From: Candidatus Woesearchaeota archaeon
GTDB lineage: Archaea; Nanobdellota; Nanobdellia; Woesearchaeales; SM23-78
Direction of reading: 5' to 3'
Length of the DNA stretch: 32,000 bases
NCBI GenBank assembly: GCA_016935175.1
Contig: JAFGRK010000006.1
Span: forward strand, 30,005-62,004
Shown: positions 16,213 to 31,822 of the stretch, one piece after another
Numbering within the stretch: position 1 is the stretch's first letter
Layout of the letters: every line of letters begins with the position of its first letter
Position numbers and translations under genes: made by a program
Notes under the pieces: model-generated
What the model saw: the letters and a program-made list of their open reading frames with translations, nothing else
What the model was told of the DNA's origin: nothing
Database searches by the model: none

Positions 16213-18003
16213 TCACATCACTCCGTTCCTGCCCATGTCCCCGACCACAATGCCGGGTATGTCTGTTTCATCTTTTATTGTGTATAGCTGGATTTTCTTG
16301 TGCCTGAACCTGCCTGTATCCCCTGAAAACCCTCCAAAGCAGAACCCTGATGCTATCTCAAGCACAGTTATCCTGTTAGTGTTCTTCTTGCTGACAAGCC
16401 CTCTCATGACTTCGTCATAATTGTAAATATAACCGTCTGATATGAGCATTATGTCAACTGAGTTCTTGTTCCTGGAAAGCACTTCGTGCATCTTCTCTGT
16501 CTCAAGCCTTGTGCCCCCTTCCTGGTAATGCAGTATGTTCTTGGAAACCTTGCGAGGGTCATCAAGAAAATTGCTAGCCTTGGTCTCGCTGCTGAAATTA
16601 ACCACAGCCACCTTGCTGCCTTTTCTCAGGTATTGCCTGGCAGCGCACACTCCTCCAAGGGCTGCGTATGAAAGCTCTTCTGCAGGGTCTGCCATGCTGC
16701 ATGACGAGTCAATCATTACCAGCAGGTCAGGAGTTCCCTTGGTTTTCTTCTCTCCCCGGCTGCCTTCTTCATTCCATGACTTGGAAATCTCAGGCAAGTA
16801 CTTGCCATAGCTGTTGAAAACATCAACCCTGGCAACAGGCTCATCAATCTCCCAGGGCTTTAGCTGCGTGCTCGCATTCTCCCCTCCTCCAATCACATCC
16901 CTGTCCTCGACCAGTATCTCATAGCTCTCTGCCTTGGCATTGTAAAAGTCAATTAGCGCATCCTTAGGGTCCCTTCCAGGGGCTCTGCTCCTGCCTGAGC
17001 CTGCGATTGGCAGCCCTTTCCTTGTTGCGCCAGGCTTGCCAACATCACTAAGCCCATCATCTTTAGCGCCTGTTTCTTGCCCTTTCAGCCTCTCCTGCTC
17101 TTGTCTCACAAAATCATGTAGCTTCTTGTAGTTATCAGGCTTCTCAAGCTCTTTTGCAATATCCTTTAATGCCCTTTCAACTTCTTTCTCGTCATAAGCC
17201 CCTAGGCCAAATCCATCAACCTTGGAAAGAGAGTAGCCTCCTGATTTGCCAGAGCTGCTTTTACCCTTGTTGCCTTCCTGCTTTTCCTGCTCATCAAGCT
17301 CTGCAAGTATCCTCGCAAACCTCTCAGCGTTCTGGTAAGCCCTTTTCCTGCTGGTGAATTTTATCTTTCCCAGCTCATCAACCTTCTGCCTCAAGCCCTT
17401 GCCTATTGTCGGCACATCAAAGTCCATGCCTGTCTTAAAGGCGTACAAGTGGCTGAGCACTGCCTCAGTATTTGAGCTCTTGTCAAGCTTCTGGTAAATC
17501 CTCCTTATCGAATCCTCTCTCTTGTCAAGCATGAGCTCCAAATTCAGGCACACGTCCATGAAATAGTTGGAAAGCTCATCCTTTTTCTCAGGGCAGGCTT
17601 TCTCAATCCTGTAAGTCAGCATTATCATGTTCTTCAAGTCCCAGGGCATTATCTTGTAATGGCCTGCCTCGTGCAATAGCAGCCCCCTGAATATGGTCTG
17701 GTAGTCAAGCCCCTTGCCCCTTAAGTGGTCAACAAATTTTTTCTGTATGCTTATCTCGTGGCTTTTCATGCTGATGCAAGCAGTCTCAACCTCATCTGAC
17801 TCAACAAGCTTAGGGAATTGCAGCTCAAAGCAGTAAAGCCTTTTCTGCACATAATCCCAGGCTTTCTCCAGCTCATCATCTATTGAAAGAGGCGAAGCTA
17901 TAGCAGCCTGCTGCTTAGCATCAGCAGCATTAACTGCAGCTTTCTTGCCTGCTTCTTGCCCTTTTTTTCTTGGCAATCCCAATAAATCCTCTAAAAACGA
18001 CAT
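16213..18003 (-). CDS. putative metallopeptidase (HExxH, DUF2201_N-like) + C-terminal vWA domain protein
   Basis: SD GGAGG lies 8 nt before the ATG at 18003. LLLHEAGHYKIMPW is encoded at 17659-17673. The vWA MIDAS motif LLVMIDSSCSMADP (DxSxS at 16696-16710) is followed by a VAVVNFSS..GGT..IMLISDG beta-strand pattern. Confidence 0.85.
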   Translation of the reverse strand: MSFLEDLLGLPRKKGQEAGKKAAVNAADAKQQAAIASPLSIDDELEKAWDYVQKRLYCFELQFPKLVESDEVETACISMKSHEISIQKKFVDHLRGKGLDYQTIFRGLLLHEAGHYKIMPWDLKNMIMLTYRIEKACPEKKDELSNYFMDVCLNLELMLDKREDSIRRIYQKLDKSSNTEAVLSHLYAFKTGMDFDVPTIGKGLRQKVDELGKIKFTSRKRAYQNAERFARILAELDEQEKQEGNKGKSSSGKSGGYSLSKVDGFGLGAYDEKEVERALKDIAKELEKPDNYKKLHDFVRQEQERLKGQETGAKDDGLSDVGKPGATRKGLPIAGSGRSRAPGRDPKDALIDFYNAKAESYEILVEDRDVIGGGENASTQLKPWEIDEPVARVDVFNSYGKYLPEISKSWNEEGSRGEKKTKGTPDLLVMIDSSCSMADPAEELSYAALGGVCAARQYLRKGSKVAVVNFSSETKASNFLDDPRKVSKNILHYQEGGTRLETEKMHEVLSRNKNSVDIMLISDGYIYNYDEVMRGLVSKKNTNRITVLEIASGFCFGGFSGDTGRFRHKKIQLYTIKDETDIPGIVVGDMGRNGVM

Positions 18004-18023: not shown

Positions 18024-18221
18024 TTGAAAAAGTCGCCGCAACCGGCACAAGCCTTTAACGAAAGCCTTGAGGGAAAAGAGCTACACTCGCATTGCGATGC
18101 TCGGTAGCAAGCGTGGAATGGGACTTCCGAAGGAATGTCCCATACTAACTCTTTTGCAAGCTTTTGTTATGAAAAGCTTCGGGGGTTGGCCCCGTCGGGG
18201 TGGCTTAGGCGACTTTTTCGA
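18024..18221. ncRNA. candidate structured RNA element of unknown class in the AAA+/vWA spacer
   Basis: A perfect 12-bp closing stem pairs 18026-18037 (gaaaaagtcgcc) with 18208-18219 (ggcgactttttc). A 7-bp stem pairs 18074-18080 with 18149-18155. An 11-bp bulged hairpin spans 18118-18143, an 8-bp hairpin spans 18158-18179, and a G4/C4 hairpin spans 18181-18200. There is no credible ORF, and the strand is undetermined. Confidence 0.45.
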
Positions 18222-18245: not shown

Positions 18246-19655
18246 CTAATCAATTTTCAAATAATCATAAAACACAGGATGGTCAACTTCTTTGGCCAGC
18301 TTTTGCGCCTCTGCAAGCTTGGCCTTGGCAACTGAGGGGCTGGATTTCTCGTTCATGGCATAAGCTTCCATCAGGCTGAACATGCTCGCTTGAGCATCCT
18401 TTTGCTTGGACCATCTCTGCATCATGTCTGCCACTGACTTCTTGGTGACGTACATCTGCAAAGGGTCTGACTCTTTCCTTCGCTCCTTCTTGAACCCTTC
18501 AATGTAGTTCTGGGTGAACCTCATCTTGTGGTTGAGCACAAAGGGCAATATGGCAGCCACGTGCTGCACACTAACTTCTTTTTCCCCAAGCAGCCAGGCA
18601 AGGCTTTGCATGTACTTGTTCTCTGCAAACGTATTCCTTACGGACTCACAATTAGTTTTCTTGCCGCACATCAATTCCTTGTAATGGCATCCCTCAACGC
18701 ATCCCTCATTGCTTCGCTTCTGCCCGAACATCATGCACGAGTATAATTCTGAAACTACAAAGTCAAGTAATAAGTCTGCCTCGTCGCTGATCCTGATTTT
18801 TCTTATCTCGTCATAAGCCTGGTTGAGCTCATCCCTTGTGAGCAATTCAAGCCCAGTCCTCTTCTCCAAAACTTTCTTGAAATCCTCTTGCACAGCAATC
18901 ATCTCTTTCCTCTTATCAGTGTAAGGCTTGTCGCTCTTCATGATGGCGTAGAGCTTGTCCTCAGACTCCTTGTGGTTGAGCATCCTTGCCCCGTGAGAGC
19001 TCCTCACATGCTGGTGGCGTATTATCCTTATAGGATTAACTCCTGGAAACTTGCTCTCATCACTCACATCGCACCTGTCAATCAATGCCTCGACAATCCT
19101 GTTGTTGCCTGAGTCCTTGTAGTTGATAGTGTTGAATATAGGCACTTCCCCCAGGTTGATAAGCTCGTTAAGGTATTGGAACTCTCCCTTGTCCATGCCC
19201 CACAAGAGCAGGTTTTGCTTTGACTCAGGTATCCTGTTGAGCTCATCAACGATCTTGGGCTCTAGCAGCACAAAATTAGACCAGATGGGCTTCTCATTTC
19301 CTTGGTTAAGCTGCCCAAGGTCTAGCCTTGCAGTCATCTTCTCTTGAGTTAATTCTGCGTGGCCTTTGAGGCTGCAGCTTGACATCACAGTCTTTGGGAT
19401 GCCATATGTCATGCTGAGCAATACTTCTGCAGAGGTGGTCTTTCCAAGGCCGTACTCTCCCATGCATAGCTGCTTTCCTCGGTTAACGCTTGTAAGCAAC
19501 CCTAGCAATAGGTTTGAGTTGAACCTGCTAGTCCCTACTTGCATATTAGAGTGGCAAAGGTAAAGGTTGTCCTTCACATAGCCGTACACTCTCAGCAATT
19601 TTTCCTGCTTTGATTTTGCTCCAGGATTGCTGCTCAACTGTTTCTGCTCGCTCAT
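18246..19655 (-). CDS. MoxR-like AAA+ ATPase with a Cys-cluster insertion in the lid region
   Basis: Walker A is GEYGLGKTT and Walker B is KIVDELNR, with ..SKQNLLLWGMDKGEFQ.. and FNTINYKDSGNNRIVEALIDRCDV matching the MoxR NP/DRF region. The lid carries VSVQHVAAILPFVLNHKM. C-X11-C-X3-C-X6-C-X5-C is encoded at 18648-18737. The ATG overlaps the upstream stop (ATGA). Confidence 0.8.
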   Translation of the reverse strand: MSEQKQLSSNPGAKSKQEKLLRVYGYVKDNLYLCHSNMQVGTSRFNSNLLLGLLTSVNRGKQLCMGEYGLGKTTSAEVLLSMTYGIPKTVMSSCSLKGHAELTQEKMTARLDLGQLNQGNEKPIWSNFVLLEPKIVDELNRIPESKQNLLLWGMDKGEFQYLNELINLGEVPIFNTINYKDSGNNRIVEALIDRCDVSDESKFPGVNPIRIIRHQHVRSSHGARMLNHKESEDKLYAIMKSDKPYTDKRKEMIAVQEDFKKVLEKRTGLELLTRDELNQAYDEIRKIRISDEADLLLDFVVSELYSCMMFGQKRSNEGCVEGCHYKELMCGKKTNCESVRNTFAENKYMQSLAWLLGEKEVSVQHVAAILPFVLNHKMRFTQNYIEGFKKERRKESDPLQMYVTKKSVADMMQRWSKQKDAQASMFSLMEAYAMNEKSSPSVAKAKLAEAQKLAKEVDHPVFYDYLKID

Positions 19656-25249: not shown

Positions 25250-25738
25250 ATGCATCCAGAAGATGACGAGCCGCAGGACGAGCTAGGCGGAGTTTATGAC
25301 GACGAAGGAAGGGAAGACCTCATAAAAGACGATGAGATAAGCCCTGAGGAAGAGGCCTTCATGCAAGGCTATGAGACAGAGGAGGAAAGGAAAGAAGAAA
25401 CCTCAGATGTCTATGAGGAAGCCTTTGACAAGGCCAACGCTGCAGCATTGCCCAAGAGAAAGGCAGCTAAGAAGAATGCTAAGGCTGCAAAAGCAGCCAC
25501 AAAAAAGGCAGGAAAAAAGGCAAAGCCAAAAAAGAAGCAAGCAAAGAAACCAGTAAAAAAGGCAAAGCCAAAAAAGAAATTAGGAAAAAAAGCAGCAAAA
25601 AAATCAAAGCCAAAAAAGAAGCAAGCAAAGAAACCAGTAAAAAAGGCAAAGCCTGCAAAGAAAATAGCAAAAAAAGCCCCTAAGAAAGCAGCAGAAAAAA
25701 CAAAGGCAAAGCCAAAAAAGAAGGGCAAGAAAAGATAA
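25250..25738 (+). CDS. bipartite acidic / Lys-Ala-Pro-rich (histone-H1-tail-like) protein
   Basis: The N-terminal ~60 aa are D/E-rich (MHPEDDEPQDELGGVYDDEGREDLIKDDE..). The C-terminal ~100 aa are KKAxKPKKKQAKKPVKKAKP-type repeats. Confidence 0.7.
   Translation: MHPEDDEPQDELGGVYDDEGREDLIKDDEISPEEEAFMQGYETEEERKEETSDVYEEAFDKANAAALPKRKAAKKNAKAAKAATKKAGKKAKPKKKQAKKPVKKAKPKKKLGKKAAKKSKPKKKQAKKPVKKAKPAKKIAKKAPKKAAEKTKAKPKKKGKKR
25521..25653 (+). repeat. perfect 49-nt direct repeat, 84-nt period, in frame
   Basis: caaagccaaaaaagaagcaagcaaagaaaccagtaaaaaaggcaaagcc occurs at 25521-25569 and again at 25605-25653. Confidence 0.85.
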
Positions 25739-25864: not shown

Positions 25865-27790
25865 ATGAAGATTTTATTCATTCACGCAGATTTCATAGAA
25901 TACGAGGCCAGGAAGAAGGCTATCAAGAGCGCAGAGGAAGTGCCAAAGGGCAAGGAGAAGGACAGGATGGAAGAGTGCCTTGTAGCCTTCACTGCTGTTG
26001 AGAAGGTTGATGAGGCCAACCCCTGCGGAGCTGCCAAAAAGGCTTTTGAGGAGATAAAGAAGATAAGCAGCCAGGTGCAAGCCAAGAATATCATGCTCTA
26101 CCCATACGCCCACCTGAGCCCTGACCTTTCCAAGCCAGAGCAGGCAGTCGAGGTCATGAAAGAGACTGAGAAGCTGCTCAAGGAAGCCAAGTACAACGTG
26201 AAAAGGGCTCCTTTTGGCTGGTACAAGTCATTCAACATAGCATGCAAGGGCCACCCATTGTCAGAATTGTCAAGCTCCCTCATCCCTGATGCAAAAGAGG
26301 GAGAAGAAGGAAAAGAAGGCAGCGAAGGAGGAGCAAAAGCATGTGAAGTGGTGTCTGAGGCCTTGAAGGCAGAGGAAAAGCTCAAGAGCTACTGGTACAT
26401 CATGGACGAGGATGGCAAGCTGCATGATGTTTCAGAATTCAATTTCTCAAAATACCCAAAGCTCAAGAAGTTTGCGTTCTATGAGAAGCAAAAGGACAGG
26501 ACCAGTGCCTGCGAGCCACTGCACATAGCGCTCATGAAAAAGCTAGAGCTGGTAGACTATGAGCCAGCCTCTGACTGCGGCAACATGAGATACTATCCTA
26601 AAGGCAGGCTGATCAAGAAACTGCTGGAAGAGTACGTGACTGACAAGGTAGTGGCTTACGGAGGAGTAGAGCTAGAGACTCCTGTAATGTATGACATGAA
26701 GCACCCGACCTTGGAAAAATACTTGCACAAGTTCCCTGCAAGGCAATACCAGATAACAAGCGACAAGAAGAATTTCTTCCTCAGGTTTGCAGCATGCTTT
26801 GGCCAGTTCCTGATAGCACATGACGCAGTTATCTCCTACAAGCACCTGCCGCTCAAGCTTTATGAGCTCACAAGGTACAGCTTTAGGCGAGAGCAAAGAG
26901 GAGAGCTATGCGGAGTTCGAAGGCTGAGGGCTTTCACCATGCCAGATGTTCATGCACTATGCTCAGACCTTGAGCAGGCAAAAGAAGAATACAAGATAAG
27001 GTTCCAATTATGCATGGACGTGCTTAAGGGCTGCGGCATTGAGCCAAAGGATTATGAGATGGGGCTCAGGGTGACAAAAGAGTTCTATGAGCAGAACAAG
27101 CCACTGATTGTAGGACTGGCAAAAAAGCTAGGCAAGCCGATCCTCGTGGAGATGTGGGATGAGAGGAAGTTCTACTTCATCCTCAAGTACGAGCTTAACT
27201 ATGTAGATTCAGTAGACAAGGCAGCTGCTCTATCCACAGACCAGATTGATGTTGAGAACGGGGAAAGGTATGACATGAGCTTCACAGACAAGGACGGCAA
27301 GAAGAAATACCCTGTAGTGCTTCACTGCTCGCCAAGCGGAGCCATTGAGAGAGTAATCTACACGCTGCTTGAATTGCAAGGGGAAAAAATACAAAAAGGG
27401 CAGGTGCCAGAGTTCCCATTGTGGCTTTGCCCAACCCAGGTAAGGCTTATACCTGTGTCTCCAGAAAAGCACCTTGAAAAGTGCAACGAGCTAGCCAAGG
27501 AGATATTCGGCGAAAGGATTAGGATTGACATCGATGATAACACAGAGTCAATTGGCAAGAGAGTTAGGCAGGCAGAGAAGGAATGGGTGCCTTACATCCT
27601 TGTAGTCGGGGATGAAGAGCTCAAGGCTGACAAGTTTAAGGCAAGAGTCAGGGGCAAGAAAGATGCAGTTGAGATGGGCAAGCACGAGCTTATCAAAGAG
27701 ATAAAGGAGAAGACTAAAGAATTCCCATGGAAGCCCTTGCCATTGCCCATGCTGCTTTCTAAAAGGCCGCAGTTCCAGACTATGAATTGA
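25865..27790 (+). CDS. thrS: threonine--tRNA ligase, archaeal type with an N-terminal editing domain
   Basis: SD AGGAGGG lies upstream. MKILFIHADFIEYEARKKAIK.. is the archaeal ThrRS editing-domain start. The class II core motifs FRREQRGELCGVRRLRAFTMPD and HCSPSGAIERVIY are present, followed by a C-terminal anticodon-binding region. Confidence 0.93.
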   Translation: MKILFIHADFIEYEARKKAIKSAEEVPKGKEKDRMEECLVAFTAVEKVDEANPCGAAKKAFEEIKKISSQVQAKNIMLYPYAHLSPDLSKPEQAVEVMKETEKLLKEAKYNVKRAPFGWYKSFNIACKGHPLSELSSSLIPDAKEGEEGKEGSEGGAKACEVVSEALKAEEKLKSYWYIMDEDGKLHDVSEFNFSKYPKLKKFAFYEKQKDRTSACEPLHIALMKKLELVDYEPASDCGNMRYYPKGRLIKKLLEEYVTDKVVAYGGVELETPVMYDMKHPTLEKYLHKFPARQYQITSDKKNFFLRFAACFGQFLIAHDAVISYKHLPLKLYELTRYSFRREQRGELCGVRRLRAFTMPDVHALCSDLEQAKEEYKIRFQLCMDVLKGCGIEPKDYEMGLRVTKEFYEQNKPLIVGLAKKLGKPILVEMWDERKFYFILKYELNYVDSVDKAAALSTDQIDVENGERYDMSFTDKDGKKKYPVVLHCSPSGAIERVIYTLLELQGEKIQKGQVPEFPLWLCPTQVRLIPVSPEKHLEKCNELAKEIFGERIRIDIDDNTESIGKRVRQAEKEWVPYILVVGDEELKADKFKARVRGKKDAVEMGKHELIKEIKEKTKEFPWKPLPLPMLLSKRPQFQTMN

Positions 27791-27830
27791 TTGTTCTTTA
27801 ATGCTGAACACAAGGATGCTTTTAATGGAA

Positions 27831-27840
27831 ATATATAAAT
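27831..27840 (+). promoter_or_regulatory. TATA box for the 27865 gene
   Basis: atatataaat is centred 29 nt upstream of the ATG at 27865. Confidence 0.45.
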
Positions 27841-27864
27841 AGAGGGATTTTTATTGAATCAATT

Positions 27865-28107
27865 ATGGGAATTTTTAAGAATATTCCAAAGATCTACAAA
27901 GGCTTAATATACCTATTTCTTGCAGTTGATTGGTGGCTTTTTGGCAAACTCACTCTATTCAAACCAGTTCCTAATGGAGCCATCAGGACGGACATTACTG
28001 GACTTGAAATTCCCCTTCTGATATATTCTGCTGTAATTCTAGCTTTGGGGCTATTGGGCATAGTATATACTATCCAAGGAATAAAAGAGATAATAGAAAA
28101 AAAGTGA
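27865..28107 (+). CDS. small membrane protein (80 aa)
   Basis: Two hydrophobic segments and a leaderless-type promoter spacing. Confidence 0.55.
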   Translation: MGIFKNIPKIYKGLIYLFLAVDWWLFGKLTLFKPVPNGAIRTDITGLEIPLLIYSAVILALGLLGIVYTIQGIKEIIEKK

Positions 28108-28132
28108 GCAAGAAAGATATCTTAAAAGAAAA

Positions 28133-28330
28133 TCAGCGCTTGCCCACAGTGTACTGGTAGGTGTTTCTCTTGCCAGTGTTCCTGTACTTGATAAGGTTGG
28201 TCTTTCGCAGCTTCTTCAAGGACATGGTCACTGAGCCAATGCTCACCTTTAGCTTGGTGGATATCTCCCTTGAAGTGAACCACTTGCCCTTATTCTTGCA
28301 TAGAAAGTCGTAAACCTCTTGTTGACCCAT
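28133..28330 (-). CDS. small winged-helix DNA-binding protein (65 aa)
   Basis: GGAGGGTG lies upstream of the ATG at 28330 (the track start 28438 is over-extended). MGQQEVYDFLCKNKGKWFTSREISTKLKVSIGSVTMSLKKLRKTNLIKYR is wHTH-like. Confidence 0.65.
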   Translation of the reverse strand: MGQQEVYDFLCKNKGKWFTSREISTKLKVSIGSVTMSLKKLRKTNLIKYRNTGKRNTYQYTVGKR

Positions 28331-28418
28331 ACTTATATCACCCTCCTCTTTTATGAATAAATGACAGTCAGAGTATATAAGCCTTTGCTTTTTAAAGCAC
28401 AAAAAAGCCTTTGCGCCA

Positions 28419-28586
28419 TCACCACATGATAAAGGCAACTATTACCATGATGAAGCCAATGGCAAAAACCCCCCAGGCTATCATCTCGTACTGCGTAAGG
28501 CTCTTGAAATATAGCTGCACCTTATTGGTGAACTCGTTGAGCTCCCCGCTCAGGTGGCTCATGAAATCCCTTATGTCCATTGCCAT
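28419..28586 (-). CDS. unlisted small membrane protein (55 aa)
   Basis: Below the track size cut-off. Translation is MAMDIRDFMSHLSGELNEFTNKVQLYFKSLTQYEMIAWGVFAIGFIMVIVAFIMW, with a C-terminal TM segment. TATA tttaaatacc lies ~28 nt upstream (28609-28618 region). The overlapping plus-strand track ORF 28411-28596 looks non-coding. Confidence 0.45.
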   Translation of the reverse strand: MAMDIRDFMSHLSGELNEFTNKVQLYFKSLTQYEMIAWGVFAIGFIMVIVAFIMW

Positions 28587-28686
28587 TATATATTAATATT
28601 AAATCTAAGGGTATTTAAACTTTTGTATTGAGCAGGGAGTCAGAAAAAAAGTAAACAAGCGGTGCCTGTAAGAGCTGTGCTTTATC

Positions 28687-29184
28687 TCATCGTATCTCTT
28701 TAAATTTATAATTTGCCAAAGCCTTAAGCTTTTTTGTCTCTCTATCGAGCGAGGCTTTAGCATAAAGGAGCTCAAAGTCTTCAAGCCAGCCGCTTTTGTC
28801 ATTGAAAGCACTTATCTTGCAGTGCTCAGCAACTCCTAATGGGGAATCACTGGCATAAACAAGCTTGCTCTTGTAGAGTAAAGGAAGGAATGGCACTGGC
28901 TTTCTTACATAAATGATGGTCTCTGCCTTGCTGCTCTTGGCAGCTAAATCCCTTTCAGACCAGGCGATTATTTCCAAGGTGTATTGTGAGCATGGCGCTG
29001 CTTTTCCAACATACCTCTCCTTAACGTAGTTGAAGCCTTCGGGATAATGCTGCTCATTTGATGTCCTCTTGCCAAGCTCAGATGCTATCAACCTTGCCTT
29101 CTCCTCAATCCTCAGCTCCTCTGCCCTTGATTTCATCTTATCAGCAAGCTCTTCTTTTTTAATCGCATCAATCTTTATTGCCAT
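28687..29184 (-). CDS. hypothetical protein (165 aa)
   Basis: AAGGTGG (29190-29196) lies 5 nt before the ATG at 29184. TATA ctttaaatac is at 29221-29230. The track start 29301 is over-extended into the divergent promoter. Confidence 0.6.
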   Translation of the reverse strand: MAIKIDAIKKEELADKMKSRAEELRIEEKARLIASELGKRTSNEQHYPEGFNYVKERYVGKAAPCSQYTLEIIAWSERDLAAKSSKAETIIYVRKPVPFLPLLYKSKLVYASDSPLGVAEHCKISAFNDKSGWLEDFELLYAKASLDRETKKLKALANYKFKEIR

Positions 29185-29270
29185 GACAACCACCTTAGTT
29201 ATCAAGAACAACTCCGGCAGGTATTTAAAGCTTTCTTTTTCTCCACTCCGCAATGGGTACTGATAGAAAG

Positions 29271-29280
29271 ATTTAAATAA
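29271..29280 (+). promoter_or_regulatory. TATA box for the 29302 gene
   Basis: atttaaataa is centred 26 nt upstream of the ATG at 29302. Confidence 0.45.
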
Positions 29281-29301
29281 GCTCATAAAATAACTTCTCA
29301 A

Positions 29302-30168
29302 ATGATTGATAAGGGAAAAAATAATCTTAACAGGACCAAAATCTATCTTATAGGCTCATTTCTTCCCTTCAGGGACAAGATAATCAGCGCCCTACCTGGT
29401 TATTCGTTCTCAGATCCGAGAACTCACCCCCAGTCATGCGTGCAGAAGCTTGTTGCAGCAGACATGAGCGAGGCAGAAAACTGCCCAGCAGCACTAGCTG
29501 TTTTTCCTAGGGGAAAAAGAAAGGGAGTAATGAGCTTTGCAGAGCTAGGAGCATCTGCAGCCCACCAAAACCACATCTTAGTAGTTGATGAGACTGGAGA
29601 AGATGACACTCTTTTAGAGCACATTGCCAGCAAAAGTTTTGGCAACATAGAATCAGTGATTGAGTATCTCAGAACAGAGCCTTTTTTATCATCTCACACC
29701 CAGAACGAAATCTTAAAGAAGTATCCTCCGACAGCAGAAGACAAGCCCATACCTGTGAAAAACATCTATTTCTGCGGAACTATAGATGATAAGATGCTGC
29801 AAACCATTGATAAGGCAAGAAAAATGCGGCCTGACAAGAACATGATTGTGAAATCAGACCCTGTAAATGAGTTCCATAACATAAACGACTATGACCTCAT
29901 AGTAGTCAACTTCCCAGGAGAGATAGACTGGGACAGGCATGCATGCTTTATGATGGGAGCAGCCTACTCCCACGACCTCCCTGTGCTGCTAAGAGAGGAC
30001 AAGGACTGGAGATACCCTCCATTGCAAGCTCTTGTCAGGAGGCACACGCCAACCTTGGAAGGAGTCCTGGAATATGTCACAGAAGTTGATGACATGCACA
30101 TCAACAGGGAAGCTGTGAACATGTACTATTTCTTTGAAAGGGAATTAAAGCGGAGAAACACCAAATAA
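29302..30168 (+). CDS. hypothetical protein, possibly tandem nucleoside 2-deoxyribosyltransferase-like (Rossmann-like) domains
   Basis: Half 1 reads KIYLIGSF..ADMSEAENCPAALAVFP..GVMSFAELGASAAHQNHILVV. Half 2 reads NIYFCGTI..INDYDLIVVNFPG..ACFMMGAAYSHDLPVLL. Both fit the loose iYlaG...D...aD.vva.....G...E.G.A...gkpv NDT-like pattern. Confidence 0.5.
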   Translation: MIDKGKNNLNRTKIYLIGSFLPFRDKIISALPGYSFSDPRTHPQSCVQKLVAADMSEAENCPAALAVFPRGKRKGVMSFAELGASAAHQNHILVVDETGEDDTLLEHIASKSFGNIESVIEYLRTEPFLSSHTQNEILKKYPPTAEDKPIPVKNIYFCGTIDDKMLQTIDKARKMRPDKNMIVKSDPVNEFHNINDYDLIVVNFPGEIDWDRHACFMMGAAYSHDLPVLLREDKDWRYPPLQALVRRHTPTLEGVLEYVTEVDDMHINREAVNMYYFFERELKRRNTK

Positions 30169-30232
30169 AACTTCAATAGGTAAATCTTCAATAACCTTTT
30201 TAAACAGCCGCCCTATCCTGACATATTAGAGG

Positions 30233-30357
30233 GCTTTTTCTAAATGCCCTGCTTCGTTTTTGCTCGCCACTGATGCTCGCAAAAACTACGCCGCGCCATG
30301 CAAGTTTACTATTGTAAACGTTGCATAAGCAGGCGACGACGGTCATTTAGAAAAAGC
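30233..30357 (+). ncRNA. candidate multi-branched structured RNA (5' leader of rtcB or a separate ncRNA)
   Basis: A 14-bp closing stem pairs 30233-30246 with 30344-30357. A 7-bp stem pairs 30248-30254 (cctgctt) with 30327-30333 (aagcagg). An 8-bp hairpin pairs 30256-30263 with 30279-30286, and a 12-bp bulged hairpin spans 30298-30326. TATA-like cctttttaaacag (30195-30207) would put the TSS at the base of the stem. GAGGTG (30360-30365) follows. Confidence 0.45.
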
Positions 30358-30370
30358 TAGAGGTGCTGAC

Positions 30371-31822
30371 ATGACAGAGCAAAAAGAAAAAATCCATGCA
30401 AAAAAAATCAATGATCACTTATTTGAGATAGAAAGGACAGGCAACATGAAGGTTCCTGTGAGGATATTTGCCAGCGAAAAGCTTCTTTCCAAATTGCAAG
30501 AGGACGCAAGCCTGCAGCAGGGCATAAACGTCGCAAGCCTTCCCGGGATTTACAAGGCATCCATCATGCTTCCTGATGCCCACCAAGGATATGGCTTTAG
30601 CATAGGCGGAGTTGCAGCCCTGGATTATGAGACGGGATGCATAAGCCCTGGCGGGATTGGCTTTGACATCAACTGCGGGGTAAGGCTTCTTACTACTCCT
30701 CTTAAAAAAGAGGATGTGGAGCCTAAGATAAAGGAGCTTATGGACTCCATGTTCAGGAATGTTCCTAGCGGAGTAGGCAGCGAGAGCTTCCTGCGCCTAA
30801 GCAATCCAGAGCTTGATGCAGTGCTAAACAAGGGAGCTGCATGGGCAGTGGAGCAAGGCTATGGCTTCAAGGAAGACTTAGAGCATTGCGAGGAGAACGG
30901 CGGCATGAAAGAGGCAGATGCTTCCAAGGTCAGCAACAAGGCCAAGTCAAGGGGAAGGGAGCAACTAGGAAGCTTGGGAGCAGGCAACCATTTCCTTGAA
31001 GTGCAGTATGTCGAGCAGATATATGATGAAGAAGTTGCAAAGGCTTTCGGCATTACAGAAATAGGCCAGGTGACTGTGATGATACACTGCGGCTCAAGAG
31101 GACTAGGCCACCAGGTATGCTCTGATTATCTCAGAAAGATGGAAGAGGCAGACCCTGAGCTAATGAAAAGCCTGCCAGAAAAAGACTTGATATACGCCAA
31201 GGCAGGCACCCAGCTTGCAAAGGATTATTTTGGCGCAATGGCAGCCAGTGCTAATTTTGCCTGGACTAACAGGCACATCATAGCCCATCAGGTAAGGAAG
31301 AGCTTCAAGGAAGTTCTGGGCCTTGAGCCAGAAAAAATAAAGACAGTTTATGATATTGCGCATAACATCGCCAAGGTAGAGGAGCATATGATTGATGGTG
31401 AGAAGAAAAAAGTTTATGTCCACAGGAAAGGAGCGACCAGGAGCTTGCCTGCAGGGCACCCTAATACTCCTGAAGTATACAAGAGCGTAGGCCAGCCAGT
31501 GTTAATCCCAGGAAGCATGGGAACAGCAAGCTACTTGCTCGTAGGAACAGAGAAAGCTCTTGAGGAAAGCTTTGGGAGCACAGCCCACGGGGCAGGCAGG
31601 GTGATGAGCAGGACAGAAGCCATCAGGAGCTTTCGTGGAGAGCAAGTGCGAAAAGAGCTTGAAGAGCACAAGATATACTTAAAAGCAGGTAGCCTAAAAG
31701 GAGTTAGCGAAGAAGCGCCTGCAGTCTACAAGGACATAGATGAAGTAGTTAAAGTCAGCCACGAGGCAGGCATAGGCAACCTTGTAGCCAAGCTAAGGCC
31801 GATTGGAGTGATAAAGGGCTAG
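30371..31822 (+). CDS. rtcB: RNA 3'-phosphate/tRNA-splicing ligase RtcB
   Basis: MLPDAHQGYGFSIGGVAA, GGIGFDINCGVRL, GAGNHFLEVQ, MIHCGSRGLGHQV, IAHNIA and GSTAHGAGR (nucleophilic His) are present. At 483 aa there is no intein-sized insertion. Confidence 0.95.
   Translation: MTEQKEKIHAKKINDHLFEIERTGNMKVPVRIFASEKLLSKLQEDASLQQGINVASLPGIYKASIMLPDAHQGYGFSIGGVAALDYETGCISPGGIGFDINCGVRLLTTPLKKEDVEPKIKELMDSMFRNVPSGVGSESFLRLSNPELDAVLNKGAAWAVEQGYGFKEDLEHCEENGGMKEADASKVSNKAKSRGREQLGSLGAGNHFLEVQYVEQIYDEEVAKAFGITEIGQVTVMIHCGSRGLGHQVCSDYLRKMEEADPELMKSLPEKDLIYAKAGTQLAKDYFGAMAASANFAWTNRHIIAHQVRKSFKEVLGLEPEKIKTVYDIAHNIAKVEEHMIDGEKKKVYVHRKGATRSLPAGHPNTPEVYKSVGQPVLIPGSMGTASYLLVGTEKALEESFGSTAHGAGRVMSRTEAIRSFRGEQVRKELEEHKIYLKAGSLKGVSEEAPAVYKDIDEVVKVSHEAGIGNLVAKLRPIGVIKG

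What the first reader, a model, noticed from the sequence alone, without database searches (positions are those of the whole stretch)
30195..30370. Multi-branched RNA structure positioned exactly between a TATA box and the rtcB Shine-Dalgarno site
A 14-bp closing stem (30233-30246 with 30344-30357) encloses a 7-bp stem (cctgctt/aagcagg) and two hairpins of 8 bp and 12 bp, about 125 nt in all. The TATA-like element at 30195-30207 predicts a transcription start at the foot of the closing stem. The SD GAGGTG begins 3 nt after the stem ends and is not sequestered.

RtcB seals RNA 2',3'-cyclic-phosphate/5'-OH breaks. A stable tRNA-sized structured RNA fused to, or encoded immediately before, its mRNA could be a cis-regulator, a processed ncRNA, or a Y/tRNA-like partner as seen beside rtcB in some bacteria. 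The closing stem shares the GAAAAAG/CTTTTTC core with the 18.0-18.2 kb element.
Basis: seen in the sequence. Interest (0 to 1): 0.65.

Follow-up and report, generated by a model that had tools for sequence, protein, structure and literature searches.

The report
Dispersed structured RNA element before rtcB
The folded ~125-nt sequence in front of rtcB is real and evolutionarily conserved, but it is one copy of a previously undescribed, multi-copy, position-hopping structured RNA element of Woesearchaeota (DPANN archaea), not a dedicated rtcB regulator.

Summary
The structure at 30233-30357 is real. It has a perfect 14-bp closing stem and folds far better than shuffles (z -5.1 on +, -6.1 on -). 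It belongs to a conserved family: 18 of 39 base pairs show compensatory changes across six members (0 of 500 shuffles reach this). The core is a three-way junction: P1 with free sequence but kept pairing, a conserved CCCUAYUYC strand, a variable P2, and P3 with a GC-rich base and an A-rich bulge. No Rfam family, tRNA or 5S model matches.

It is not rtcB-specific. Of 11 close RtcB lineages that share the same promoter (CCTTTTTAAAC), three carry it in the leader, one of them inverted. Eight have an empty site (AGAGGTG). Filled sites read AGAGG-element-(A)GAGGTG.

One MAG (SM23-78) holds three copies: before rtcB, before SMC and just after a class-I tRNA synthetase gene.

My reading is a dispersed, low-copy structured RNA module that rides on host transcripts and here forms the 5' leader of rtcB mRNA with the SD left free. 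A MITE-like DNA element is the main rival. I found no expression data. The link to the 18-kb element is not supported.

The parts
30197..30204 (+). TATA-like box TTTTTAAA of the rtcB promoter (context aaCCTTTTTAAAc)
   Evidence: The same motif lies upstream of rtcB in L001, L002, L026, L028, L029, L033, L035, L036, L040 and L042. The predicted start is near 30226-30229 (inference from the usual archaeal TATA-to-start spacing).
30228..30232 (+). Left AGAGG direct repeat abutting the element
   Evidence: Filled sites read AGAGG|element|1-4 nt|(A)GAGGTG. Empty sites have a single AGAGGTG.
30233..30246 (+). P1 5' arm (closing stem, 14 bp perfect)
   Evidence: I20. The outer positions covary in the family.
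30247..30255 (+). J1/2, conserved pyrimidine-rich junction strand (CCCTGCTTC here; family consensus CCCTAYTYC)
   Evidence: Alignments.
30256..30286 (+). P2 hairpin (8 bp plus a 15-nt loop TCGCCACTGATGCTC). This is the long-P2 variant shared with L026.
   Evidence: P2 is 7 bp with a 3-4-nt loop in L002/L013/L015/L017, and only GC-UAAA-GC in L028.
30289..30342 (+). P3: GC-rich base helix (CGCCGCGCC / GGCGACGACGG), asymmetric bulge (AAGCA here; ACAAA in the family), conserved (U)UGCA/UGCAA pairs and a variable tip hairpin
   Evidence: Covariation. CM alignment.
30344..30357 (+). P1 3' arm
30359..30365 (+). Right AGAGG repeat overlapping the rtcB Shine-Dalgarno site GAGGTG (30360-30365)
   Evidence: The SD is unpaired in the MFE fold.
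30371..31822 (+). rtcB (483 aa, PF01139), the host gene whose leader carries the element

Best explanation
The feature is one copy of a dispersed, low-copy family (at least 3 per genome) of ~105-170-nt structured elements found in Woesearchaeota/Nanoarchaeia. It acts at the RNA level as a self-contained three-way-junction module.

Anatomy. A closing stem P1 has free sequence but kept pairing. It encloses a conserved 8-9-nt strand (CCCUAYUYC), a dispensable and variable P2, and a P3 arm with a conserved GC-rich base, an A-rich bulge and a variable tip.

Genomic behaviour. Copies sit inside transcription units: right after stop codons, or between a promoter and an SD. They usually lie on the sense strand and have no regular promoter or terminator of their own. 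I therefore infer that they are made by host-gene transcription, and that they are either kept as a 5'/3' structured end or trimmed back to P1 as a small stable RNA bound by a conserved factor.

This locus. The element lies between the rtcB transcription start and the SD, flanked by AGAGG repeats. rtcB mRNA should therefore begin with this 125-nt module while the SD stays accessible.

Shown versus inferred. Shown: structure, covariation, multi-copy status, presence/absence, inversion, promoter conservation. Inferred: transcription, the functional strand, processing, a protein partner, and a neutral or stabilising effect on rtcB.
For: Structure and significance.

Family and covariation:
- 15 of 42 pairs are compensatory in 5 sequences.
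- 18 of 39 pairs have changes on both sides, 94.6% of cells are paired, 0/500 shuffles reach this, and slid controls give 2-5 pairs.
- CM R1 scores 92-139 bits on the modelled strand against 22-33 on the reverse.

Not rtcB-specific: 3 filled and 8 empty rtcB leaders share the same promoter. Filled lineages are scattered in the RtcB tree.

Other contexts:
- L013/L045: the element starts 1 nt after a tRNA-synt_1b gene.
- L015/L044: upstream of SMC.
- L017: abuts the stop codon of a wHTH gene.
- L028: between two small genes, 1 kb from rtcB.

Three copies lie in one MAG, GCA_001595785.1, on contigs LSSJ01000018.1, LSSJ01000019.1 and LSSJ01000036.1. Contig depths are similar across four runs. These paralogues differ by compensatory changes.

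Orientation: 5 of 6 independent loci are co-oriented with the downstream gene.

P1 sequence differs completely between members yet always pairs: GCTTTTTCTAAATG, GTCCTAAATG, GGCAAAATAAG, GGAAAAAAGCCAA. This argues against a transposase-recognised terminal repeat.
Against: - There is no expression evidence. Three metatranscriptomes from the source study show no contig on the element, and no RNA run holds it.
- Helices are almost purely Watson-Crick (208 WC, 4 G-U, 2 A-C). Wobble pairs therefore do not fix the strand, and a DNA-level hairpin would fit equally well.
- L026 carries the element antisense to both neighbours.
- Presence/absence at one site, flanking AGAGG repeats, both orientations and mosaic subtypes are classic signs of a mobile DNA element.
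- No partner protein or target was identified.
- The orientation bias (5 of 6) is not statistically significant.
Confidence: 0.5

Rival explanations
1. It is a selfish MITE-like or ERIC/Correia-like DNA element. This would be a small non-autonomous palindromic insertion whose closing stem is its terminal inverted repeat. The hairpins would matter for transposition (as double- or single-stranded DNA), and any RNA fold would be a by-product.
For: - Presence/absence at the orthologous rtcB site among lineages 79-90% identical in RtcB, scattered in the tree.
- AGAGG direct repeats flank filled sites, against a single AGAGGTG in empty ones. The closest filled/empty pair, L002/L035, fits a simple insertion plus a 5-bp duplication.
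- Both orientations occur at the same site.
- At least 3 copies occur per genome.
- Helices are nearly all Watson-Crick.
- In run X1, several further contigs of depth similar to the window's contig carry the P3 half.
Against: - The terminal repeats are not conserved in sequence between members; only their pairing is kept.
- No target duplication is visible at the other four sites.
- No transposase is linked to any copy.
- Copies within one genome are diverged and differ by compensatory changes deep inside P3. The unpaired junction nucleotides are the best-conserved part.
- Copy density is low, with no extra copy in about 240 kb of related DNA beyond the seven loci.
Confidence: 0.25
2. It is a cis-regulatory leader of rtcB. 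This would be a riboswitch, a protein-binding operator, or autoregulation by RtcB or archease acting on its own mRNA.
For: In the window, L002/L038 and L026 the element lies exactly between the conserved rtcB promoter and the SD. A different subtype lies 1 kb from rtcB in L028.
Against: - Eight of 11 close lineages lack it at this site.
- One lineage carries it antisense.
- Paralogues in the same genome sit next to unrelated genes such as SMC and a tRNA synthetase.
- There is no expression platform: the SD is unpaired in the fold and not covered by any conserved alternative pairing.
- No riboswitch family matches.
Confidence: 0.08
3. It is an RtcB partner or substrate RNA. This could be a Y-RNA/YrlA-like or tRNA-like RNA, or an RNA that is cut out and circularised by the splicing endonuclease and RtcB.
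For: Physical proximity to rtcB in four lineages. The long terminal stem resembles Y-RNA or processing stems in outline.
Against: - No tRNA was found.
- There is no YrlA, Y_RNA or tRNA-like Rfam hit even at E<=10.
- No TROVE/Ro domain was found in the proteins tested.
- No bulge-helix-bulge motif occurs at the base of P1 in any member (sequence inspection).
- Most copies are not near rtcB. The RtcB-based sampling biases the apparent linkage.
Confidence: 0.07
4. It is a divergent copy of a universal RNA (5S rRNA, SRP RNA, RNase P RNA, tRNA) that standard models miss.
For: The size (~120 nt) and three-helix outline resemble 5S rRNA. The reverse strand has GAGUAGGG next to helix I, as bacterial 5S does (recalled from memory, not tested here).
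Against: - RF00001 detects 5S in 203 of 208 complete Nanobdellota genomes (bioRxiv 10.64898/2026.05.13.725050), yet gives no hit here at E<=10.
- The arm lengths and the 9-nt junction do not fit 5S.
- There are three diverged copies in non-rRNA contexts.
Confidence: 0.02

Closest known systems
Bacterial small palindromic intergenic repeats (ERIC/IRU of enterobacteria, Correia/NEMIS of Neisseria, BOX/RUP of pneumococci)
   Same: - About 100-150 nt long, with no ORF.
- Fold as a long imperfect palindrome.
- Lie in transcribed intergenic regions next to stop codons or start regions.
- Occur in either orientation.
- Show presence/absence between close relatives.
- Sometimes have short flanking duplications.
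(The features of these bacterial families are from my own knowledge, not tested here.)
   Different: - The host is archaeal (DPANN).
- The core is a three-way junction with highly conserved unpaired strands.
- Terminal arms are not conserved in sequence.
- Copy number is low (at least 3 in one MAG, not tens to hundreds).
- No sequence similarity.
Archaeal box C/D and H/ACA sRNA genes
   Same: - Multi-copy small RNA genes that often lack their own promoters.
- They abut or overlap neighbouring ORF ends.
- They are made from host transcripts and change position between related genomes.
- They have a conserved protein-binding core and variable stems.
(From my own knowledge of the Pyrobaculum, Sulfolobus and Nanoarchaeum literature.)
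   Different: - No conserved C/D boxes, K-turn, pseudouridylation pocket or ACA box.
- No variable single-stranded guide region.
- The fold is different.
Y RNA / YrlA next to rsr-rtcBA in Salmonella and other bacteria
   Same: A structured RNA with a long terminal stem, encoded beside rtcB.
   Different: - No tRNA-like domain, no Rfam hit and no Ro/TROVE gene were found.
- The element is dispersed, not operon-specific.
5'-terminal stabilising stem-loops of mRNAs (e.g. the ompA leader)
   Same: At this locus the module would sit at the very 5' end of rtcB mRNA and leave the SD free.
   Different: Such stabilisers need no conserved junction and are not dispersed families.

Membership tests
Any Rfam 15 family | Covariance-model score at or above the gathering threshold | tested here: not met
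   There were no matches at gathering threshold in the window. At E<=10 the only hit on the locus was a 12.9-bit chance hit to a fungal snoRNA. Nothing fell on the element in L002, L013, L015 or L017.
tRNA / tRNA-like | Cloverleaf with a T-loop and anticodon arm, detectable by ARAGORN | tested here: not met
   ARAGORN found 0 genes in the window. The P2 loops are 3-4 nt (UUU, UUC, UAC, UAUC), not a 7-nt T-loop.
5S rRNA | Match to RF00001, with helix II-III and IV-V arms, loop C and loop E | tested here: not met
   No RF00001 hit at E<=10. RF00001 works in this phylum. The MAG SM23-78 carries three copies, none of them in an rRNA context.
Riboswitch / rtcB cis-regulatory leader | Consistent position upstream of the regulated gene class in related genomes | tested here: not met
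   The element is present in 3 of 11 rtcB leaders, one of them inverted. Other copies are next to unrelated genes.
Riboswitch / rtcB cis-regulatory leader | Expression platform that occludes the SD or forms a terminator | tested here: not met
   The SD at 30360-30365 is unpaired in the MFE and centroid folds. No T-run follows the element.
MITE (cut-and-paste non-autonomous transposon) | Terminal inverted repeats conserved in sequence across copies | tested here: not met
   The P1 arms differ completely between members while pairing is kept.
MITE (cut-and-paste non-autonomous transposon) | Target-site duplication flanking each copy | tested here: inconclusive
   AGAGG is duplicated at the rtcB site in three lineages. 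No clear duplication is seen at the L013, L015, L017 or L028 sites.
MITE (cut-and-paste non-autonomous transposon) | Multiple copies per genome, and presence/absence at orthologous sites | tested here: met
   Three copies occur in GCA_001595785.1. There are 3 filled and 8 empty rtcB sites.
Archaeal BHB intron / circular RNA precursor | Bulge-helix-bulge motif (two 3-nt bulges 4 bp apart) at the excision boundaries | tested here: not met
   P1 is a perfect 14-bp helix here. Irregularities in L013, L015 and L026 are opposed internal loops or single bulges, not staggered 3-nt bulges.
Box C/D sRNA | Conserved C (RUGAUGA) and D (CUGA) boxes forming a K-turn | tested here: not met
   CUGAUGC occurs only in the P2 loop of the window and L026 variants and is absent from the other members.
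Y RNA / YrlA | Ro60 (TROVE) gene in the neighbourhood and a Ro-binding bulged stem or tRNA-like domain | tested here: not met
   No TROVE hit was found in the six neighbouring proteins scanned. No YrlA or Y_RNA hit was found. The whole genome was not available for a Ro search.
New family proposed here (Woesearchaeal three-way-junction element) | P1 + CCCUAYUYC + P2 + P3 (GC base, A-rich bulge, UGCA/UGCA pairs) + GACGGU-P1', supported by covariation | tested here: met
   The window copy scores 92 bits, E 4e-20, full length 1-116, against model R1, although it was among the five sequences R1 was built from.

The most novel reading that the evidence does not exclude
The element is a new class of RNA-level mobile or semi-autonomous module in DPANN archaea. 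Its spread, inversion or maturation would depend on RNA cutting and RtcB-type ligation, for example excision or circularisation followed by re-insertion. Alternatively it is the RNA subunit of an undescribed conserved RNP of Woesearchaeota. Its recurrent lodging in the rtcB leader would then be functional rather than accidental.
Probability: 0.12. Interest if true: 0.85.

Novelty: new variant of a known kind. Interest (0 to 1): 0.55.

Why it matters
Very few structured non-coding RNA families specific to archaea are known, and I found none described for DPANN lineages in Rfam 15 or in the paper searches run here. This family has clear covariation support, a compact conserved junction that looks like a binding site, and unusual genomic behaviour: several diverged copies per genome, gain, loss and inversion at one site, and a position inside transcription units.

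If it is an RNP RNA, it points to an unknown conserved factor in organisms with minimal genomes. If it is a selfish element, it is an archaeal counterpart of ERIC/Correia-type repeats and a useful marker of genome dynamics.

For annotation, it warns against reading the structure as an rtcB riboregulator.

Tried and rejected
- Rfam at gathering and at E<=10 on the window and on four canonical members gave nothing.
- ARAGORN gave nothing.
- 5S rRNA idea: rejected.
- Viral contigs: two pattern scans gave only a chance match and DNA-methyltransferase coding sequence (SPPYFGLRDY).
- Kinship with the 18-kb element: the shared heptamer lies in opposite arm order, and the CM with filters off gives no hit.
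- Ro/TROVE near either element: no Pfam hit.
- BHB intron, C/D, H/ACA, K-turn, hammerhead and twister cores: not seen on inspection and no Rfam hit.
- Expression: three metatranscriptomes of the source study and an RNA-run index search were empty.
- Strand call by wobble pairs: 4 G-U against 2 A-C, uninformative.
- Target duplication at the L028 site by comparison with empty orthologous spacers: the sequences are too diverged.
- Literature: three paper searches for a DPANN or Woesearchaeota structured RNA or an rtcB-linked archaeal RNA, plus one for DPANN 5S rRNA, found no description of this element.
- Look-up of the window's own RtcB contig to extend the window: not on record.

Full report
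**1.

- The window reads GCTTTTTCTAAATG (30233-30246) and CATTTAGAAAAAGC (30344-30357), a perfect 14-bp closing stem.
- Inside it lie an 8-bp hairpin (30256-30263 / 30279-30286) with a 15-nt loop and a 12-bp hairpin with one bulge (30298-30309 / 30314-30326).
- As RNA, the + strand folds at -51.6 kcal/mol against -34.4 +/- 3.4 for dinucleotide shuffles (z -5.06, 0/200). The - strand folds at -55.3 (z -6.13).
It is not in the MFE fold and is not conserved.
- TTTTTAAA lies at 30197-30204, GAGGTG at 30360-30365, and the rtcB ATG at 30371.

**2. No known family matches**

- ARAGORN finds no tRNA.
- Rfam 15 gives nothing at gathering threshold.
- At E<=10 the only hit is a 12.9-bit chance match.
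- Four other family members also give nothing.

**3. Source organism and homologues**

- The closest RtcB relatives are Woesearchaeota/Nanoarchaeia MAGs at 75-88% identity.
- L002 (MAG SM23-78) has a homologous element at the same place, with compensatory differences.
- L001, at 85% RtcB identity, has the same promoter and SD but no element.
- A metagenome pattern scan found four real loci: L013, L015, L016 (the same sequence as L002) and L017.
- Viral contigs gave only chance or coding-sequence matches.

**4. The fold is conserved with covariation**

- RNAalifold on five sequences gives 42 pairs, 15 of them with double compensatory changes.
- A covariance model (R1) scores members at 92-139 bits on one strand and 22-33 on the other.
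- On the model-guided alignment of six members:
  - 94.6% of cells pair.
  - 18 of 39 pairs change on both sides.
  - 0/500 shuffles reach this.
  - Sliding the partners by 1-3 columns leaves 2-5 such pairs.
- The alignment was fitted to the model, which leans towards the structure. The independent MAFFT/alifold result agrees.
- Consensus anatomy:
  - P1 is 8-14 bp, with free sequence and kept pairing.
  - J1/2 is CCCUAYUYC.
  - P2 ranges from GC-UAAA-GC in L028 to 8 bp plus a 15-nt loop here.
  - P3 has a base helix (Y)CG-C-CGC-GCC / GGC-N-GCG-A-CGG, followed by an A / ACAAA asymmetric bulge, (U)UGCA/UGCAA pairs and a variable tip.
  - A single U then leads back into P1.
- Loose ends of metagenome contigs show yet another member with P1 GGAAAAAAGCCAA/TTGGCTTTTTTCC.

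**5. The element is not tied to rtcB**

I fetched rtcB neighbourhoods for relatives that are 79-90% identical to the window's RtcB.

- All keep the promoter motif aaCCTTTTTAAAc.
- The leader is filled in three lineages:
  - the window,
  - L002/L038/L039,
  - L026/L027.
- The leader is empty in eight: L001, L028, L029-32, L033/34, L035, L036/37, L040 and L042.
- Empty sites read TTTTTAAA, then 23-33 nt, then AGAGGTG.
- Filled sites read TTTTTAAA, then 21-23 nt, then AGAGG | element | 1-4 nt | (A)GAGGTG. This is an insertion-like signature with a 4-5-bp direct repeat.
- In an NJ tree of RtcB the filled lineages are scattered:
  - L026 is sister to the empty L040 (90% identity).
  - L002/L038 are sister to the empty L035.
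- This needs either repeated precise loss or repeated gain.
- In L026/L027, which are two independent assemblies, the interior is inverted relative to the same flanks. The model hits the strand opposite to rtcB at 50.7 bits and does not hit the sense strand.
- L028 has an empty leader. It carries a different subtype 1 kb away, between two small genes.

**6. The element is multi-copy and dispersed**

- L015 proteins are exact matches to proteins of MAG SM23-78. Its contig LSSJ01000019.1 carries the element at L044 12419-12535, upstream of SMC.
- The L013 locus has its SM23-78 counterpart on LSSJ01000036.1. There the element (L045 9811-9927) starts one base after a class-I tRNA synthetase gene.
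- With LSSJ01000018.1 (rtcB), that gives three diverged copies in one MAG.
- Contig depths of the three loci are similar across four runs.
- The paralogues differ by compensatory changes. L013 shares its P3-base variant (CAUCUGGCC/GGCACAG) with L026. L002, L015 and the window share CGCCGCGCC. Subtypes therefore cross genomes and look mosaic.
- In the source sample (run X1), several further contigs of about the same depth as the window's contig (8.6-9.0 against 8.2) match the P3 half. This hints at more copies in the source genome, but it is not proof.
- Within the window there is only one copy.
- About 240 kb of related DNA held no copies beyond the seven loci.

**7. Strand and transcription**

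- Five of six independent loci are co-oriented with the downstream gene.
- Three start 0-15 nt after a co-oriented stop codon.
- No regular promoter or T-run terminator accompanies the element.
- This fits production from host transcripts.
- Wobble pairs do not decide the strand (4 G-U against 2 A-C among 224 cells).
- I found no expression data.

**8. Interpretation**

- Best reading (0.5): a dispersed structured-RNA module that rides on host transcription units and is probably recognised by a conserved factor through its junction. Here it forms the 5' end of rtcB mRNA and leaves the SD free.
- Main rival (0.25): a MITE/ERIC-like DNA element.
- An rtcB-specific regulator, a Y-RNA-like partner and a divergent 5S rRNA are each poorly supported:
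  - RF00001 works in this phylum but does not hit here.
  - No TROVE domain is present nearby.
  - There is no bulge-helix-bulge motif.

**9. The 18-kb element**

- It is also strongly structured (z -6.07 on the - strand).
- It lies between a MoxR-like AAA ATPase gene and a 596-aa gene.
- It is unrelated to this family.
- The shared heptamer is trivial, because P1 sequence is free in the family.

**10. Literature**

Searches found no description of this element.

Noticed in passing
window 18026-18219 (- strand): A second, unrelated, highly structured ~195-nt element (MFE -77.8 kcal/mol, z -6.07) is closed by the 12-bp stem GAAAAAGTCGCC/GGCGACTTTTTC. It lies between a MoxR-like AAA ATPase gene (18246-19655, -) and a 596-aa gene with no Pfam hit (16213-18003, -), ending 9 nt before that gene's GGAGG SD. 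It has no Rfam hit. Parts of it (18048-18080, 18111-18175) match other contigs in the source metagenome, so it may be another conserved or dispersed family.
   Followed up: partly
L026 9812-9983 and L027 1134-1305: The rtcB-leader copy is inverted relative to identical flanks (promoter, AGAGG, SD) in two independent assemblies. It carries extra branches in P3 (172 nt). Whether the segment flips within populations could not be tested, because only contigs were available.
   Followed up: partly
L004 1800-2510: In this Nanoarchaeota MAG the RtcB match starts at residue 101, directly after ...SIIVSN|CGVRLL. It is preceded by about 700 nt of open reading frame, which looks like an intein (with an endonuclease-like part) inserted at the catalytic-site cysteine of RtcB.
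   Followed up: no
L029 21048-21446 and L031 13287-13688: The DNA ligase gene downstream of the rtcB neighbourhood carries an intein (PF14890; 923 aa) in this lineage. In L026, L033, L035 and L036 the gene encodes 582-620 aa without it.
   Followed up: no
L030 5753-6172 and L031 1031-1450: An IS200/IS605-type Y1 transposase gene (PF01797) is inserted near the ThrRS/small-gene cluster in some contigs of one population. It is absent from L029 and from the held part of L032, which carry the identical RtcB. This is strain-level mobile-element polymorphism a few hundred bases from rtcB.
   Followed up: no
window 25459-25723: A 42-nt tandem repeat (five in-register copies of an 84-nt unit at 42-nt spacing) encodes a Lys/Ala-rich low-complexity tail (KKAAKK-like) at the end of the ORF 25250-25738.
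   Followed up: no
window 30195-30207 and the rtcB upstream regions of L001, L028, L029, L033, L035, L036, L040, L042: The promoter motif aaCCTTTTTAAAc is conserved. A similar motif (AACCTTTTTATAC) precedes SMC in L015/L044. This may be a useful Woesearchaeota promoter consensus.
   Followed up: partly
window 25865-30168 and the equivalent regions of L026, L028, L033, L038, L042: Synteny is conserved in the order ThrRS, a 65-aa wHTH gene, a 55-aa membrane gene, a nucleoside-deoxyribosyltransferase-like gene, then rtcB. ThrRS orientation is flipped in the window and in L038/L039 relative to the others.
   Followed up: no
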